Of a stretch of 60,274 bases of DNA, positions 18,039 through 32,384 are shown one piece after another; positions within the stretch are counted from its first letter, which is position 1, and every line of letters begins with the position of its first letter. Where the stretch lies: the sequence record OQ791410.1, one strand, 5' to 3'. The translations under genes were made by a program, and so were the position numbers. The stretch comes from Escherichia phage phiG7. The notes under the pieces are model-generated. The model was given only the letters and a program-made list of their open reading frames with translations. It was not told where the DNA came from and made no database searches.

Positions 18039-19799
18039 TTATGGAAGGTTAGTTTGCTGTGAACCATTCGCTTCTTTTAGTGCAGCTAATTCCGCTTCTA
18101 GGTTCTCCACCTTTTCCATCAAAGCAAGAATTGCTTCATGGTGCAATGCCGCAGCTATACCGGAAGTGTTTACAGACTTCACATCACTCACGGATGAACC
18201 ATTGCGTAAGGTAACAGGAGAGAACTTTGTTTCGGATACTGCTTCAGGGAAATCCTTCTCTACATCCTGAGCAATAAATCCATACCCAACTGACCCATTT
18301 GTTTCCAATGTCCATTTAACGCCTTTAATGTTCCGCATCTTGGACAGTGGATCGTTTATACGCTCAATATTACTTTTAATGCGTTTGTCGGATAAACTTC
18401 TCCATTCTTGGCATTTTGCTATACCGTCCGACCCAAAAAGATAAGATGCAGCTCCTCCGCTTCCGTCATAGACGTTAAGCTGCATCCTATCTAACAACGT
18501 ACTATCGGAGCGAATACCACCAAGAATCCAGCTTCCATCATACCAATCGCCGCTTATAGTGTTTACAAAATACCCTTCTCCAACATTGGCGTAGTTTATC
18601 ATCCTTATGGCGTTTCTTTCTATGGCGCTAACTCCAACGGAGTTTAATGGCTGTGCAAGGAAGTCTTTTGCTCGTACATATGCGTCAACCTGTATTGCCC
18701 CATCACTTCTCAGTGTCCCGATCTGTGACTCTGCGTTTGGAAGGCGCAATGTACCATCCTGACCAAATGCCCATTCCTGAACACCATTTGATAACACCGC
18801 CCCTGATTCGCTGCTCAATCCATCAATCTTTCCGTAAGATTGCAAATACGCTTGATGTGTGGTAGTCGTACCTATCTTGTATTCTGATTTTACACTACCC
18901 CCTCTTACAATTGTTCCAGAAGAAGGTTTGACAGCGTCAGCGTTTATTACACTCCATGCTGTATTTGCCGCAACGAAACCACCTGACGCACGGATTACCC
19001 ACACACCGACAAAGTTTCGTGTAAGAATTTCATCAGTTGATTGTCCGTAAATTGGACTTGAAATTGAGGCATTGAAATCACAGGTGTTATAACGCCCAGC
19101 GAGCACCGCTGGGCCTGGGGGTATACCATCTCCTTTTCCTTCCGGAAATGCATTATTATTTGCGGTAAAACAACCACCTGTATGACCTAATACCTGGCCG
19201 TAAGTTTGAGCGGAATATGTGGTGAAAAAACCTGTAATATTTGGCGCAGCGGATTCGAACAGTTGCCCATTTGCAGAGGAGTTTCCACCATCACCTCGAC
19301 CATAAAGTGCGCGAATGGACCCCTCTTGAACACCGTTTTTATCTGGTACGCGGAAAGTTGTTACTCCGTCGCCAGAGGAATATCTGCCGCGTTTAAATTT
19401 ATTAGACAGCCATTCACTATCATCTATAAGCCCGACCATTTGAGCGTAATTCCATAATTCAGGCCAGTCTGCACGGTTAAGTAATTGCCCGTCCGATGTA
19501 ACCTCATAAGGTTGAACGTAAGCGCGACTATCCCGGAGATGGAAATCCCCTACCCCGTAATTCATTACCCCGTTCATTGTTGGACCAACTGTACCTGTGT
19601 TGATTAAGTTCTCAACCCAACGTTTAGTTGCTGCATCATAATCGCTAACTGGGTCCCCAGCTAATGGCGTAGACCCAATTGGTCGAACGTTTAACCACGC
19701 GGCAGCGCGGTCCGCAAGATCAGATAAATTATTACTTTTATCCATCTTTTCGTCTTTAAGTTTTGTAATGTCCTGAGGGATATTAGTATAAGTAGTCAT
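18039..19799 (-). CDS. tail fibre protein with C-terminal intramolecular chaperone (peptidase S74-like) domain
   Basis: C-terminal SDKRIKSNIE motif and coiled coil typical of self-cleaving chaperone domains. Confidence 0.6.
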   Translation of the reverse strand: MTTYTNIPQDITKLKDEKMDKSNNLSDLADRAAAWLNVRPIGSTPLAGDPVSDYDAATKRWVENLINTGTVGPTMNGVMNYGVGDFHLRDSRAYVQPYEVTSDGQLLNRADWPELWNYAQMVGLIDDSEWLSNKFKRGRYSSGDGVTTFRVPDKNGVQEGSIRALYGRGDGGNSSANGQLFESAAPNITGFFTTYSAQTYGQVLGHTGGCFTANNNAFPEGKGDGIPPGPAVLAGRYNTCDFNASISSPIYGQSTDEILTRNFVGVWVIRASGGFVAANTAWSVINADAVKPSSGTIVRGGSVKSEYKIGTTTTHQAYLQSYGKIDGLSSESGAVLSNGVQEWAFGQDGTLRLPNAESQIGTLRSDGAIQVDAYVRAKDFLAQPLNSVGVSAIERNAIRMINYANVGEGYFVNTISGDWYDGSWILGGIRSDSTLLDRMQLNVYDGSGGAASYLFGSDGIAKCQEWRSLSDKRIKSNIERINDPLSKMRNIKGVKWTLETNGSVGYGFIAQDVEKDFPEAVSETKFSPVTLRNGSSVSDVKSVNTSGIAAALHHEAILALMEKVENLEAELAALKEANGSQQTNLP

Positions 19800-27529: not shown

Positions 27530-30500
27530 TTACCCCATTGCAGTTCTACGAATTGTTCCTCGGGATGCAAAGTCAGTAAGAACTTTATTATATCCCTGCT
27601 CCGCACCATCACGAGCTGCTTGCTGCATGGCTTGCGTGAGCGCAGCATCGCCATTTCCTTGCACCGTGATATACTGAACAATGCTAACACCACCGGACAT
27701 ATTCACGCCACCTTGTTGTGAAGATTGACTATCCAGGAAGCGGTTTAACTTGTCATTAGACGGGGCATTAAGTACACGTTCACCTTTATCCAATAACCAT
27801 GTACCTTCGCGCGGAACATTATCAATACCGTCATGCGCCATACCAGCGATTGCTAAGCCACCCACAGTAGCAGCAGACGCATAACCCATAGCTTTCACTA
27901 TACCAGCCATAGCTGCGCCCATTGTAGCACCGCCTTGCTGTGTACCCCACGCAAGCGCCGCTGATGCCGCTGTCTCCGTGTTAGCAAGGATTGATGGGAT
28001 TTGCATTGCTTTCTGTGCGGCAAACATTGCCTTATAAATAAAGTTCTGTTTACTAACACCTTCTTCCAGCCCTGACAGTATAATACCCAACGATTCCTGA
28101 GAAAAGGATATCATTCGGTTCATAAGAACTTTATCCAGATTTTCCCTTTCCATGCTCGCTTTCTTCAAGACTTGGGTTTTAGCATCTTCGTAAAGCTGAT
28201 AGTAAGCTAGATCATCGGCTCGTTGTTTTGCATTAAGCTCTGCAATCTTTGTATTTTGCTCGTACGCGATTTTTTCATAGTCTGTCATACCTTCATCTAA
28301 CAGACCCTGAGCAAACTTACGATTCTTCTTACGCTCGTCCAGTTTCTTTTGAGCTTCTTCTGCATCGTAAATTGCAGCAGCAAGACTAACGACTTCTGCT
28401 TTTTCCGCAGCCGTTGCAGACGCATTGAGCTTATTAAGTGCCACCGCTTGCGCTTTCGCTTTGGCGTTTTCCTTAACCCCCGTGGTTACTTCGTTAAGCT
28501 TGTTTCGTAAATCGTCAATAACCTTAGCGTTTTGTTGATCCGCCTTAATAGCGTCTTTTGTAGCTTTAGTCCGGTTTCTCTCTGCTTCTTCAAGATCATA
28601 GTTTTTGCCAAGAGCTTGGGCTAAATCTTGAGCATATTTAACAAGCTCTTTAGCGGATTCGCTTGTTGCCTCTGAGCTAACGTCCTGACCCATAGCTACT
28701 TTGCGAATAAGACTTCCGTATGTATCCGCATCCTTGCCCAGCGTCTGATACAGTCCACTAAGGATTGCAGCTTGGCGAGCATTGCCAGCACCCTTAACCG
28801 TGTTAACATCAATCTCACGGTTAACGTCCCCGAGTTGACCTTTAAAGCGATCCAATACTTTTTCGTCAATTAACGGACCGGATTTAATGCTAAGGACAGC
28901 CTTCATATCCGCAGCAAGCTGACGCGCTAGAGGGATTATTTTCTCTATAGCGGGGCTTGTCATTTCAAGCACATTGTTATATCGACGTTGTGCGTCTTCC
29001 GCGCGTTCAGCAGCTAGCTTGACGTTATCCGTAGCAATCTGTAAGTTCTTTTCCGCACTAGCAGTATCACGACCGGACGCAGCACGGCGTTTTAATTGTG
29101 CTTCATAGAACTTCTGTGTTTCTGTAGCAGATTTTAAAGCGGTCTGTTCCCGCTTCATTTGCTCTTCAAGTTCAGGAAGAATTGCTCTAGCTTTGACCGC
29201 GTTAGCTGCCAACTGAGCTTCAGTCATTTGCATCAGTTTTTCGCGTACACTGTCAACACTATCTGCAAATTGATTATTTTCAGCACGACCTGCTTCCAGC
29301 GACGCTTTATAGGAGTAAATTGCACCCGCTGCCAGCATTGCTACACCAACAGGACCGCCAATTAACCCCATAGCACCGCGCAGCACGCTCATTGCTGTAG
29401 CTGCCCGGCTTGCGGCTGGTACAGTTGCATTAAGAGCAGCATTGAGCGCTTGCCGCGCTTGTACGTCCGCCATAATTGCCGCAGAGTGAGCACGGGTAGC
29501 ATTGATAAGCGCAAGGCGAGCACCCGCTTCCGCTGCCGTACCCTTAGCAACCGCTAACGCACCGCGTGCAACCTGCAAAGATGCAAGGGAAGCAGCACGG
29601 TCCGCAGCCGCTTTTTGTGCAGTAACGCCAATGGAGCTTTGCATCACCGCCGTAGTTGCCGCAGTTTGTGCAGCTTCCATCTGAGATGCTTTTGCAGCAG
29701 CTATAGACGCTTTAGTCTTAGCAAGCATTGCCGTAATGATACGGGCGGTGATCACTGTGGCTAAAGCTGAACCAACCGTTACAACCGTTCCTAAGTTTTC
29801 GGATAATGCAACAAACGTCTGTCCCAATGCAGCGACCGCACCTTGAGTCTTTTGGGATTCGCCCATAAACTTAGTCAGGTTGTTTGTTGCAACTGTCCAT
29901 TGCTGGTTGAACGTTGGCATAGTGCGGCTAAATTCTTTATCAATTGTATCCGCAGCACCAGACAACGATTTGATAACCACATCTGATGTTAACTTTCCGC
30001 TGTACGCCAGCTCACGCAATTGTCCAATGGTAACGCCTAACGAATCGGACATGATTTGAGTTAAGCGCGGTGCCTGTTCTGCAACAGATCGGAATTCATC
30101 CCCGCGCAAAACACCGGATGCCATCGCTTGCGAAAACTGAATAAGAGCAGCACTTGCTTCATGGGATGTTGCACCGGAAACAATCATTGCTTTGTTAATT
30201 GTTTCCGTGATACGTCCAAGCTCCATACCAGTCATACCAGTATTCTTCATCGCACGCTGGAGACGGGAGTACAGAGTTGCAGTCGCTTCCAAGCTTGTAC
30301 GTGACCGCTGGGCAATATCAAACACGCGTTGCTGCGCATCCGCAACGGTTTCATTACCCGTACGAGCCAGTTCAAGTTTGTTGGTGAGGATAGTCCAGGA
30401 GTCCGATAGCGAAATAACACGGCTAATAGTGTCAACGCTAATCATTCCTACAATTGCAGCATCCAAACGACTTGTGACAGTTGCAAGTTCGTTAGATGTG

Positions 30501-30646
30501 TTAGACAATGTTTTATAGCTGGAGGTAACACGTTGAGCAGACCGCTCCGCTGTGTCACCTGTACGCGCTAAGTTCCGCAACATGGAGTCCGCGGTACTAA
30601 TCCCTCTCGCGTCAACTCTGATTACTAGCGAAGCGGTTTCGGCCAT
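27530..30646 (-). CDS. tail tape measure protein
   Basis: 1038 aa, Ala/coiled-coil rich, directly downstream of G/GT chaperone genes. Confidence 0.8.
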   Translation of the reverse strand: MAETASLVIRVDARGISTADSMLRNLARTGDTAERSAQRVTSSYKTLSNTSNELATVTSRLDAAIVGMISVDTISRVISLSDSWTILTNKLELARTGNETVADAQQRVFDIAQRSRTSLEATATLYSRLQRAMKNTGMTGMELGRITETINKAMIVSGATSHEASAALIQFSQAMASGVLRGDEFRSVAEQAPRLTQIMSDSLGVTIGQLRELAYSGKLTSDVVIKSLSGAADTIDKEFSRTMPTFNQQWTVATNNLTKFMGESQKTQGAVAALGQTFVALSENLGTVVTVGSALATVITARIITAMLAKTKASIAAAKASQMEAAQTAATTAVMQSSIGVTAQKAAADRAASLASLQVARGALAVAKGTAAEAGARLALINATRAHSAAIMADVQARQALNAALNATVPAASRAATAMSVLRGAMGLIGGPVGVAMLAAGAIYSYKASLEAGRAENNQFADSVDSVREKLMQMTEAQLAANAVKARAILPELEEQMKREQTALKSATETQKFYEAQLKRRAASGRDTASAEKNLQIATDNVKLAAERAEDAQRRYNNVLEMTSPAIEKIIPLARQLAADMKAVLSIKSGPLIDEKVLDRFKGQLGDVNREIDVNTVKGAGNARQAAILSGLYQTLGKDADTYGSLIRKVAMGQDVSSEATSESAKELVKYAQDLAQALGKNYDLEEAERNRTKATKDAIKADQQNAKVIDDLRNKLNEVTTGVKENAKAKAQAVALNKLNASATAAEKAEVVSLAAAIYDAEEAQKKLDERKKNRKFAQGLLDEGMTDYEKIAYEQNTKIAELNAKQRADDLAYYQLYEDAKTQVLKKASMERENLDKVLMNRMISFSQESLGIILSGLEEGVSKQNFIYKAMFAAQKAMQIPSILANTETAASAALAWGTQQGGATMGAAMAGIVKAMGYASAATVGGLAIAGMAHDGIDNVPREGTWLLDKGERVLNAPSNDKLNRFLDSQSSQQGGVNMSGGVSIVQYITVQGNGDAALTQAMQQAARDGAEQGYNKVLTDFASRGTIRRTAMG

Positions 30647-31451
30647 TATCTTCTCCTTTTTCTTCTACCTTTATTTTGATTTTGCATTTGACTTTCCATG
30701 AGTTTAGCATTTTGTTCAGCTTCTGACACGCGCTTTTCAAGCCATAGCTGCCGCAGTATTTCGCATTCGTACGGTTGAAGACGTAAGCCCATTGTCACTT
30801 GATAGCTGTGCAATTCTGTATAACTAAAATCTCCTCCAGTGTAGATATCATCAAATAAAGTAGATAGATATTCGAAGCAAAGCGGTATTTCCTTTTCCCG
30901 ATATTCTTTAAGCTTAGGTGGCGTCTTACCAGACTGTTCCTCAACCTTTTGCAGTTGCGATAATAAAGAAGATCCCCCGCCGGGGACTTTGCTATTTAGT
31001 TCCCATTGGAGGATCTTCTTATCAATTAACTGTCTGCGCGCTTTTAGAAAAAATTACTATCTTTAGCGGCAAATACGTTAAGGTCTTCTCGGACAGTTGG
31101 GTTCTCCGTTAAGAACTCAAACACGTTATCAACAGTCGGTGGCTCGTCAAAAGTCCAACCTGCTACAAGGTTACACAGTGAACGGGTAAGGATATCTTCC
31201 TTCATAGCATCCGTTACTTCACCGTCTTTACCCTGCATAAGCGCCAACAGTTGACGCTGTGCTTTCAATTCTGCGTCACGATACTCTGTGCAGTAGCGGC
31301 TACGAATGTAGAGTTTTTCGCCAGTGTCGCCTACACCAGGAATAACCACATTCATTGGCTTAGTGTTTGCCGGGTCATTTGCCCGGCTCACAGTTTTAAA
31401 ATCACGGAAGCTTTTAGCTACTGCAACTTTGGCTTTTTTGGTGTCGGTCAT
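30646..31451 (-). CDS. tail assembly chaperone GT fusion via -1 programmed ribosomal frameshift
   Basis: Slippery heptamer T_TTT_TTC at 31047-31053 (minus strand) just before G stop; -1 frame open for about 125 codons ending in TAATG overlap with tape measure start. Confidence 0.7.
31044..31451 (-). CDS. tail assembly chaperone (gpG-like)
   Basis: 135-aa ORF between major tail protein and tape measure genes. Confidence 0.65.
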   Translation of the reverse strand: MTDTKKAKVAVAKSFRDFKTVSRANDPANTKPMNVVIPGVGDTGEKLYIRSRYCTEYRDAELKAQRQLLALMQGKDGEVTDAMKEDILTRSLCNLVAGWTFDEPPTVDNVFEFLTENPTVREDLNVFAAKDSNFF

Positions 31452-31460
31452 TTCTTATCC

Positions 31461-32384
31461 TTATGCTTCCGCTAAAACGCGGGTAATTTTGATGGAACTT
31501 GCGGTTGTTGGGTCCAGCAATCCGCGGTAGCCCATATTAAGCATGATATCGCCTTCACCGTCAATAGGACGCGGAGCCTCTGTGAATTTCACGCGAGGGA
31601 TTTCCACGGTGTATTTTTGTTGCGGATTGCTTGGGTCAATCAGATCAAACTTGATTGAAGTTTCCACTTCATCCAGATACTTCTTACGCAGTTTGTTATC
31701 CAGGAAGTAAACGTTAGCTGTACCAGTTACAGCACGGCGACCAGCAGACGGTTCAATGGAGAACTTCGAGCCAACAACGAAGCGCGGGGAGATATCGTTT
31801 TCAACGGTAAGACCGATTTCCGTAATAACGCTAATTTCCTGACCGCCTTCCAGCAAGCGACCGGAGAAGCCGTCCATCGGTGAAGAAGTTGTACGAGCTT
31901 TAATGGAAGCACCGGCAGGAAGTGATTCAGCAATTTCCATGGAGCGACCAACAATACCAAACTCTACTGTGGTCATGTTTTCAGCTGACAATGCGAAAGT
32001 CATGCTGTTAACTTCACAACCGCGATAGATTGTGTATTTACCTGATGGCAGATCTGCGTTATAGTCTACAAAAGTAAATGACTGGCGAACAATACCACCT
32101 TTAAGGACGTTCTCCTGCCATTCACCGCGCAGCGCTGCCGCAATGAGGTCGTCAAACGTACCGAAGGACATTTCGCCCGTTACCGTACCTTCAACGCTTC
32201 GAGCGCCAAGACGGAAGTCTGCGGTTTCTGCGTCATCACGCAGTTCTTCAGACTCCAGCGTCGCGATGTTAATATCCAGACCGGAACTCGTCACACGAAA
32301 CGGGGTAAACTTTGCGTTCGCTGGAGTTGTGTTGCTCACATCTTCTTTGACGTAATAACACGAATAACGTGAACCTGTAGCCAT
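31461..32384 (-). CDS. major tail protein
   Basis: 307-aa ORF directly upstream of chaperone G/GT. Confidence 0.55.
   Translation of the reverse strand: MATGSRYSCYYVKEDVSNTTPANAKFTPFRVTSSGLDINIATLESEELRDDAETADFRLGARSVEGTVTGEMSFGTFDDLIAAALRGEWQENVLKGGIVRQSFTFVDYNADLPSGKYTIYRGCEVNSMTFALSAENMTTVEFGIVGRSMEIAESLPAGASIKARTTSSPMDGFSGRLLEGGQEISVITEIGLTVENDISPRFVVGSKFSIEPSAGRRAVTGTANVYFLDNKLRKKYLDEVETSIKFDLIDPSNPQQKYTVEIPRVKFTEAPRPIDGEGDIMLNMGYRGLLDPTTASSIKITRVLAEA

What the first reader, a model, noticed from the sequence alone, without database searches (positions are those of the whole stretch)
30646..31451. Canonical G/GT tail-chaperone -1 programmed frameshift at T_TTT_TTC
The gpG-like ORF ends ...AAT TTT TTC TAA. 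The heptamer T_TTT_TTC (31047-31053, minus strand) is a textbook X_XXY_YYZ slippery site sitting just before the stop. The -1 frame stays open for about 125 codons and ends in a TAATG overlap with the tape-measure start. This gives a high-confidence recoding site and an internal positive control for frame-reading in this window.
Basis: partly seen in the sequence, partly recalled or inferred. Interest (0 to 1): 0.45.

Follow-up and report, generated by a model that had tools for sequence, protein, structure and literature searches.

The report
Phage tail-chaperone programmed -1 frameshift site
This is the usual programmed ribosomal slip by which long-tailed phages make a longer version of their tail-assembly chaperone; it is real and well supported here, but it is ordinary and already annotated at the identical site in sister phages.

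Summary
On the minus strand a 135-codon ORF (31451..31044) ends AAT TTT TTC TAA. The heptamer T_TTT_TTC lies at 31053..31047. The -1 frame is closed by TAG TAA just before the heptamer, then stays open for 133 codons (not ~125). It ends in a TAATG overlap with the tape-measure start at 30646.

- The genes lie between the tail tube gene and the tape-measure gene.
- The -1 segment is a Pfam Phage_TAC_18 protein and has no start codon for 80 codons.
- Its variation among relatives falls at third codon positions of the -1 frame.
- All 15 GenBank and 63 IMG/VR relatives place the T homologue in the -1 frame. Most keep T_TTT_TTC or T_TTT_TTA in phase.

The window is a Seuratvirus. GenBank records of phages Seurat and SA80RD already carry a joined CDS with "ribosomal slippage" at this site, so the finding is already known.

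One addition: a ~105-nt stretch (31064..30959) shows almost no synonymous variation. It runs from just before the heptamer through a stable hairpin that starts 22 nt downstream. The role of that hairpin is unresolved.

The parts
31461..32384 (-). Tail tube (major tail) gene, 307 aa, directly upstream of G
   Evidence: Pfam PF18906 Phage_tube_2, E=4.9e-43
31044..31451 (-). G-like tail assembly chaperone ORF (135 aa), the product of standard decoding
   Evidence: ORF list and translation. PHROG 569 E=2.8e-26 and PHROG 313 'tail assembly chaperone' E=3.2e-11. Pfam Phage_TAC_4 is below threshold, E=0.048.
31054..31059 (-). TAG TAA stops in the -1 frame that close it immediately 5' of the heptamer
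   Evidence: Translation of the -1 frame reads R**FFLKARR.... The overlap of the two ORFs is 10 nt.
31047..31053 (-). Slippery heptamer T_TTT_TTC (codons AAT TTT TTC), followed directly by the 0-frame TAA
   Evidence: Identical in 11 other Seuratvirus genomes. Conserved in phase in distant relatives.
30646..31047 (-). T extension in the -1 frame: 133 sense codons plus TAA (30648..30646)
   Evidence: Pfam PF23812 Phage_TAC_18, 37.9 bits against a cut-off of 27. PHROG 569 profile positions 130-256, E=2.5e-46. Variable sites by codon position are 8/6/34. The first ATG/GTG/TTG in the open -1 frame is its 81st codon (79th after the slip).
30646..31451 (-). Predicted GT fusion coding region (268 aa; one base read twice at the heptamer)
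   Evidence: Same span as the joined CDS in Seurat KM236243 and SA80RD OL960575
30961..31024 (-). Stable imperfect hairpin inside the T coding region, starting 22 nt 3' of the heptamer
   Evidence: MFE -33.7 kcal/mol, z=-4.45, 0 of 200 shuffles as stable. It is the 17th most stable non-overlapping 70-nt window on this strand. The stems are invariant in 12 Seuratvirus genomes.
30959..31064 (-). Zone of suppressed synonymous variation covering the heptamer, the spacer and the hairpin
   Evidence: Among 12 Seuratvirus genomes the only variable sites between alignment positions 637 and 742 are two in the upper part of the hairpin (an internal loop and the minor inner stem), not in the main stem. 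Third-position variability is 2/30 for T codons 1-30 and 37/103 for the rest, p=0.001. Against yong3, 17/19 versus 19/44 codons are identical, p=0.0005.
30653..30657 (-). AGGAG ribosome-binding site for the tape-measure gene, inside the 3' end of T
   Evidence: Read from the sequence. Seurat annotates an RBS at the same place.
27530..30646 (-). Tape measure protein gene (1038 aa); its ATG overlaps the T stop as TAATG
   Evidence: Pfam PF20155 TMP_3, E=8.5e-60

Best explanation
The window is a Seuratvirus (Queuovirinae) phage genome. Its tail-assembly chaperone is made in two forms from one start codon. Most ribosomes read the 135-codon G ORF and stop at TAA (31046..31044). A minority slip back one base when tRNA-Phe occupies both the P site (UUU) and the A site (UUC) of U_UUU_UUC. 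Both tRNAs re-pair to UUU by normal wobble. The ribosome then reads CUA AAA GCG ... for 133 more codons. This gives a 268-aa GT fusion (...DSNFF-LKARRQ...) that ends one base into the tape-measure ATG. By analogy with lambda G/GT (inferred, not shown here), the G part binds the tape-measure protein and the T part recruits the tube protein. The slip frequency would set the G:GT ratio. Shown here: the ORF geometry, the heptamer, coding constraint in the -1 frame, family membership and conservation. Inferred: that the slip is ribosomal, its frequency, and the assembly role.
For: 1. Geometry. The -1 ORF opens at the heptamer and the 0-frame ORF closes right after it, so the frame change can only occur there.
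2. No independent start. The first start codon of the open -1 frame is its 81st codon, a TTG, whereas tblastn matches to 9g-like phages begin at residue 1 of T and the PHROG 569 match begins at residue 6.
3. The two halves match adjacent parts of one PHROG 569 profile, positions 11-126 and 130-256. T is Pfam Phage_TAC_18.
4. Gene order is tail terminator, tube, G, T, tape measure.
5. Purifying selection acts in the -1 frame: variable sites by codon position are 8/6/34.
6. T is in the -1 frame behind a G-like ORF in all 15 GenBank relatives examined and all 63 IMG/VR loci. These span Seuratvirus, Nonagvirus, Vidquintavirus, Craquatrovirus, Amoyvirus and Abidjanvirus.
7. The in-phase heptamer is T_TTT_TTC in 14 of the 16 sequences tabulated (the window plus 15 relatives) and T_TTT_TTA in 2. 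It is T_TTT_TTC in 31 of 63 IMG/VR loci and T_TTT_TTA in 4. The heptamer is kept although the distance to the G stop varies from 0 to 93 nt, and the final C is kept although the -1 codon it starts encodes L, Q or R.
8. U_UU.U_UU.C belongs to the efficient class of E. coli heptamers, and U_UUC is the second-best A-site tetramer (PMC4066793).
9. Seurat and SA80RD annotate the same join with 'ribosomal slippage'.
Against: No experimental evidence was found for any Seuratvirus; the GenBank joins are computational annotations. No stimulatory element lies at the usual 5-9 nt spacing. The only strong structure begins 22 nt downstream. The G half reaches only a sub-threshold Pfam chaperone match, and no solved structure is related. 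One extra U inserted by RNA polymerase in the T6 run would give exactly the same protein.
Confidence: 0.88

Rival explanations
1. Single-tRNA 'shifty stop' slippage. The shift happens one codon later, when tRNA-Phe on UUC is in the P site and the slowly decoded UAA is in the A site. The P-site tRNA slips to UUU and CUA is then read. The product is the same.
For: The 0-frame stop directly follows the heptamer in the window and in Seurat, Skure, yong3, 9g and Kpn2-P2.
Against: In other relatives the same heptamer lies 3 to 93 nt before the G stop (Vid5, K4PH164, PSTCR4, PaMx11, Bhz54) and is still conserved as a full X_XXY_YYZ heptamer. The -1 A-site codon CUA is a rare E. coli codon (from general knowledge), which would not favour this route.
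Confidence: 0.08
2. Transcriptional slippage. RNA polymerase adds one U in the T6 run, so a fraction of mRNAs carry G and T in one frame.
For: There is a run of six T (seven in 9g, PaMx11 and others). The protein would be identical (...NFFLK...), so the protein-level evidence does not separate the two mechanisms.
Against: Known bacterial slippage sites use longer runs, about 9 or more (from general knowledge; the review PMC5009743, covers transcriptional slippage). In the window and the 15 GenBank relatives the run is always in the X_XXY_YYZ phase and ends in C, or in A in two cases.
Confidence: 0.03
3. T is a separate small gene started internally, as annotated in several records (48 aa from ATG, or 70 aa from TTG), and there is no fusion.
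For: WildeMaa, KurtStettler, CSP1C and Greed annotate a 48-aa ORF, and Skure a 70-aa TTG ORF.
Against: Protein conservation and third-position variation cover the whole 133 codons from the heptamer on. The Pfam Phage_TAC_18 match spans T residues 35-104, upstream of those starts. The positions of the called starts differ between relatives.
Confidence: 0.01

Closest known systems
Phage lambda G/GT tail assembly chaperones, and the conserved tail-gene frameshift described by Levin, Hendrix and Casjens 1993 and Xu, Hendrix and Duda 2004 (as reviewed in PMC5009743)
   Same: Two overlapping ORFs lie between the major tail gene and the tape-measure gene. A -1 slip at an X_XXY_YYZ heptamer near the end of the first ORF extends it by about its own length. 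No stimulator lies at the usual spacing.
   Different: The heptamer is U_UUU_UUC, not G_GGA_AAG. Neither half gave a listed Pfam match (E<=1) other than Phage_TAC_4/Metallophos_3 and Phage_TAC_18/GST_C_3. The overlap is reduced to the bare 10 nt. A constrained hairpin lies 22 nt downstream.
Escherichia phage Seurat CPT_Seurat13/14 (KM236243) and SA80RD_14/15 (OL960575), annotated 'tape measure chaperone' with ribosomal slippage
   Same: The heptamer and its flanks are identical in sequence. The 806-nt joined CDS has the same span. The region is 97-98% identical in DNA.
   Different: Nothing of substance differs. The window is another isolate of the same genus. Other records (CAjan, slur01, SLUR25, SLUR76) leave the T region unannotated.
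E. coli -1 frameshift signals with a nearby stimulator (dnaX, IS3/IS911 family)
   Same: Tandem slippage on a homopolymeric heptamer. U_UU.U_UU.C is used by some IS elements (PMC4066793).
   Different: From general knowledge, those signals have a hairpin or pseudoknot 5-9 nt downstream and often an upstream Shine-Dalgarno-like element. Here the structure starts 22 nt downstream, and no upstream Shine-Dalgarno-like element is evident by eye in the sequence.

Membership tests
Tail assembly chaperone pair expressed by -1 programmed frameshift (lambda G/GT type, functional class) | Located between the major tail/tube gene and the tape-measure gene | tested here: met
   Tube PF18906 at 31461..32384 and tape measure PF20155 at 27530..30646
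Tail assembly chaperone pair expressed by -1 programmed frameshift (lambda G/GT type, functional class) | The second ORF is in the -1 frame, overlaps the end of the first, and lacks its own start | tested here: met
   10-nt overlap. The first start codon of the open -1 frame is its 81st codon.
Tail assembly chaperone pair expressed by -1 programmed frameshift (lambda G/GT type, functional class) | In-phase X_XXY_YYZ slippery heptamer inside the overlap | tested here: met
   T_TTT_TTC at 31053..31047, the only possible in-phase position. Background rate is 0.32%.
Tail assembly chaperone pair expressed by -1 programmed frameshift (lambda G/GT type, functional class) | The arrangement is conserved among homologues that have diverged in sequence | tested here: met
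   15 of 15 GenBank relatives and 63 of 63 IMG/VR loci have T in the -1 frame. A perfect heptamer is present in 15/15 and 51/63.
Tail assembly chaperone pair expressed by -1 programmed frameshift (lambda G/GT type, functional class) | A GT fusion is made at a low fixed ratio to G; both are needed for tail assembly and absent from virions | not testable with these tools
   Needs protein analysis of infected cells and genetics
Lambda gpG and gpT sequence families (Pfam Phage_TAC_2 and Phage_tail_T; names recalled from memory) | A significant match to those profiles | tested here: not met
   The Pfam scan at E<=1 returned only Phage_TAC_4 (E=0.048, below cut-off) for G and Phage_TAC_18 for T
Pfam PF23812 Phage_TAC_18 | Score above the gathering threshold | tested here: met
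   T residues 35-104, 37.9 bits against 27
PHROG 569 | Both halves match one profile in order | tested here: met
   G matches profile positions 11-126 (E=2.8e-26) and T matches 130-256 (E=2.5e-46)
Frameshift signal with an adjacent stimulatory RNA structure (dnaX or IS3 type) | A stable hairpin or pseudoknot beginning 5-9 nt after the heptamer | tested here: not met
   The stable stem begins 22 nt downstream. Distant relatives Bhz54, PaMx11, ZQG1 and R7M do have stems at 5-7 nt.

The most novel reading that the evidence does not exclude
The heptamer is part of a ~105-nt constrained cassette. The hairpin 22 nt downstream, too far away to act as a classical stimulator, would tune the relative output of G, GT and tape-measure protein. 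It could do so as an unusual long-spacer frameshift modulator, or as a partial transcription terminator or RNA-stability element sitting just after the point where most ribosomes leave the message.
Probability: 0.25. Interest if true: 0.35.

Novelty: already known. Interest (0 to 1): 0.12.

Why it matters
The finding gives a correct 268-aa GT annotation for this genome. It shows that many public Seuratvirus and Nonagvirus records mis-annotate or omit the T part. It is also a sound internal control for frame reading in this window. It does not change what is known about recoding. The only open point is the constrained distal hairpin. If that hairpin affects slippage or downstream expression, it would be a modest addition to what is known about how phages set tail-protein ratios.

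Tried and rejected
- A consensus fold of seven lineages found no hairpin in a common register: 4 pairs, -0.75 kcal/mol. Covariation therefore cannot be claimed, and the hairpin evidence rests on per-sequence stability and synonymous constraint.
- The Rfam scan gave only sub-threshold matches on the opposite strand (mir-1002 and RAGATH-25, E of 0.03-0.05, far below the gathering scores), taken as chance.
- The sequence search of solved structures with GT found nothing relevant.
- Ribosome collision was considered: a ribosome paused at the hairpin holding the next one on the heptamer. It was rejected because most ribosomes terminate at the TAA, 19 nt before the hairpin, so few ever reach it (inference).
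- The conserved GCGCGC five nt after the heptamer in Seurat, yong3 and Vid5 was considered as a stimulator. No conserved pairing partner was found. GCG and CGC are also common E. coli codons (general knowledge), so it was not pursued.
- The outer helix in the MFE fold (CAGUU/AACUG) is broken in Skure and was dropped.
- The large protein-database searches and structure prediction were not run, because they could not change the verdict.

Full report
**What is in the sequence**

- On the minus strand a 135-codon ORF runs from ATG 31451 to TAA 31046..31044 and ends ...GAT AGT AAT TTT TTC TAA.
It is in the phase NNT TTT TTC, which is X_XXY_YYZ.
- Translation of the -1 frame gives R**FFLKARRQ.... 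Two stops, TAG TAA at 31059..31054, close that frame directly before the heptamer.
- The 0 and -1 ORFs therefore overlap by 10 nt only. The heptamer fills the single in-phase position at which a -1 shift could join them.
- They end at TAA 30648..30646, which overlaps the ATG (30646..30644) of a 1038-aa ORF as TAATG. An AGGAG lies 6 nt before that ATG.

**Is it more than chance?**

- Only 3 of 20000 shuffles of the 399-nt segment lack a stop in that frame.
- In-phase X_XXY_YYZ heptamers occur at 0.32% of codon positions in the long ORFs of this window.

**What the genes are**

- The upstream 307-aa ORF is a tail tube protein (PF18906, E=5e-43). The gene before it is a tail terminator (PF13554). 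The 1038-aa ORF is a tape-measure protein (PF20155, E=9e-60).
- The 135-aa protein matches PHROG 569 (E=3e-26) and PHROG 313 'tail assembly chaperone' (E=3e-11). It matches Pfam Phage_TAC_4 only below threshold.
- The -1 segment is Pfam PF23812 Phage_TAC_18 (37.9 bits, cut-off 27).
- The -1 segment matches positions 130-256 of the same PHROG 569 profile whose positions 11-126 match the G half. That profile therefore treats the two halves as one protein.
- No solved structure is related by sequence.

**Where the window comes from, and what is already annotated**

- The region is 95-98% identical to 31 E. coli phages of the genus Seuratvirus (Queuovirinae), including Seurat, CAjan and KS_A8.
- The GenBank record of Seurat (KM236243) carries a two-piece joined CDS, 'tape measure chaperone', over the same 806-nt span.
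- SA80RD (OL960575) has the same annotation.
- The Seurat genome announcement lists a tape measure chaperone among the morphogenesis genes (PMC4342423).
- Other records are inconsistent:
  - WildeMaa, KurtStettler, CSP1C and Greed call a 48-aa ORF.
  - Skure calls a 70-aa TTG ORF.
  - CAjan, slur01, SLUR25 and SLUR76 leave about 400 nt unannotated.

**Evidence that the -1 frame is translated from the heptamer onward**

- The first ATG, GTG or TTG of the open -1 frame is its 81st codon (79th after the slip).
- Yet tblastn matches to 9g-like phages start at residue 1 of the T segment.
- The protein alignment of 12 lineages is collinear from the two Phe codons of the heptamer.
- Among four close relatives, variable sites fall 8/6/34 on codon positions 1/2/3 of the -1 frame.

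**Comparative test**

- In all 15 GenBank relatives examined, the T homologue lies in the -1 frame relative to a G-like ORF. These are Seuratvirus, Nonagvirus 9g, Vid5, PSTCR4, R7M, PaMx11, Lucjan, ZQG1, Bhz54, PMBT28 and others, with T identity down to about 21%.
- Counting the window, the overlap contains an in-phase T_TTT_TTC in 14 of 16 sequences and T_TTT_TTA in the other 2.
- A scan of IMG/VR gave 63 loci, a few of which duplicate GenBank phages. All have T in the -1 frame behind an ORF of at least 128 codons.

| Heptamer in the 63 IMG/VR loci | Loci |
|---|---|
| T_TTT_TTC | 31 |
| T_TTT_TTA | 4 |
| A_AAT_TTT only (a distinct lineage) | 16 |
| No perfect heptamer, near-motif CCA ATT TTA | 12 |

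- The heptamer is kept although its distance to the G stop ranges from 0 to 93 nt.
- Its last base stays C although the -1 codon it starts encodes Leu, Gln or Arg. This points to selection on the nucleotide pattern itself.
- In E. coli, U_UU.U_UU.C falls in the efficient heptamer class (H_HH.U_UU.Y). U_UU.C is the second-best A-site tetramer after A_AA.G (PMC4066793).

**Most likely mechanism**

- This is tandem -1 slippage of two tRNA-Phe from UUU-UUC to UUU-UUU, followed by decoding of CUA AAA GCG...
- The result is a 268-aa GT fusion made alongside the predominant 135-aa G.
- The assembly role is inferred from lambda (review PMC5009743) and is not tested here. In that model G binds the tape measure, T recruits the tube protein, and the ratio is set by the slip frequency.

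**Rivals**

- Single-tRNA slippage at the adjacent stop gives the same product. It is disfavoured because relatives keep the full heptamer far from their G stops.
- Insertion of one U by RNA polymerase gives the same protein. It is disfavoured by the short T run and its constant phase.
- Independent initiation of T is excluded in practice by the conserved, start-less N-terminal 78 codons.

**An addition not in the original finding: a constrained downstream hairpin**

- The 104 nt from the heptamer fold at -33.7 kcal/mol (z=-4.45; 0 of 200 shuffles as stable). The long imperfect hairpin spans 31024..30961 and starts 22 nt after the heptamer.
- It is the 17th most stable non-overlapping 70-nt window on this strand of the 60-kb window.
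- Across 12 Seuratvirus genomes, no site varies between 31064 and 30959 except two in the upper part of the hairpin (an internal loop and the minor inner stem, not the main stem).
- Third-position variability is 2/30 for T codons 1-30 against 37/103 for the rest (p=0.001).
- Skure differs at 108 of 803 G+T positions but at none from 28 nt before the heptamer to 94 nt after it.
- Hafnia phage yong3 (52% T identity in the protein alignment) keeps 17/19 identical codons there against 19/44 elsewhere (p=0.0005). It has the same hairpin arms.
- K4PH164, Vid5, 9g and Kpn2-P2 have different hairpins at 28-35 nt. Bhz54, PaMx11, ZQG1 and R7M have stems at the classical 5-7 nt.
- No common register exists, so covariation cannot be shown.
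- The inner GC stem plus a T-rich tail also matches a simple terminator pattern (30987..30972).
- The role of the hairpin remains open. It could be a frameshift modulator, a transcription attenuator or an RNA-stability element.

**Verdict**

The feature is a textbook tail-chaperone frameshift already annotated at the identical site in sister phages. Interest is low.

Noticed in passing
window 30959..31064 (- strand): Synonymous variation is almost absent from 11 nt before the heptamer through a stable hairpin (31024..30961) that starts 22 nt downstream. The only two variable sites among 12 Seuratvirus genomes are in the upper part of the hairpin, outside the main stem.
   Followed up: yes
window 30972..30987 (- strand; also the + strand at 30973..30986): The GC-rich core of the hairpin followed by CTTCTTTATT matches a simple intrinsic-terminator pattern inside the T coding region. 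That is just after the point where most ribosomes leave the mRNA. It could lower tape-measure transcript levels, but this is untested.
   Followed up: partly
L005-L018 (relatives), first 104 nt after each heptamer: There are two classes of downstream structure. Seuratvirus, Nonagvirus, Vid5 and K4PH164-type phages have hairpins starting 21-35 nt after the heptamer. Bhz54, PaMx11, ZQG1 and R7M have stems at the classical 5-7 nt. PMBT28 and PSTCR4 show nothing significant.
   Followed up: partly
GenBank records L002, L003, L004, L082-L087: Public annotation of this locus is inconsistent. Several records call a 48- or 70-aa fragment of T, and others leave about 400 nt between G and the tape-measure gene unannotated. 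RefSeq names G 'tail length tape measure protein'.
   Followed up: yes
L046-L081 (IMG/VR loci): A distant branch of the same chaperone family uses A_AAT_TTT instead of T_TTT_TTC. Twelve loci have only a near-motif (CCA ATT TTA TC) in the overlap, which suggests slippage on a tetramer or an imperfect heptamer.
   Followed up: partly
window 30658..30745 (- strand): A second stretch of low third-position variability lies at the 3' end of T, just upstream of and including the tape-measure ribosome-binding site.
   Followed up: no
L012 (MT713136 Aeromonas phage AP1, 240650..240919): A 254-kb Straboviridae record has a 35%-identical tblastn match to the T segment. The match overlaps an annotated hypothetical gene on the opposite strand (locus 935-1720) and has no annotation of its own. 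Also, 'Aeromonas phage SD04' is 97.6% identical to E. coli Seuratviruses. Both look odd for their stated hosts or taxa.
   Followed up: no
window, whole: One other in-phase TTTTTTC lies within a long open (stop-to-stop) reading frame somewhere in the window. TTTTTTC also occurs at 19230, 5540, 5525, 1826 and 483 on the minus strand, and at 28270, 33461, 34383, 34598 and 40610 on the plus strand. Which of these is the in-phase one was not determined.
   Followed up: no
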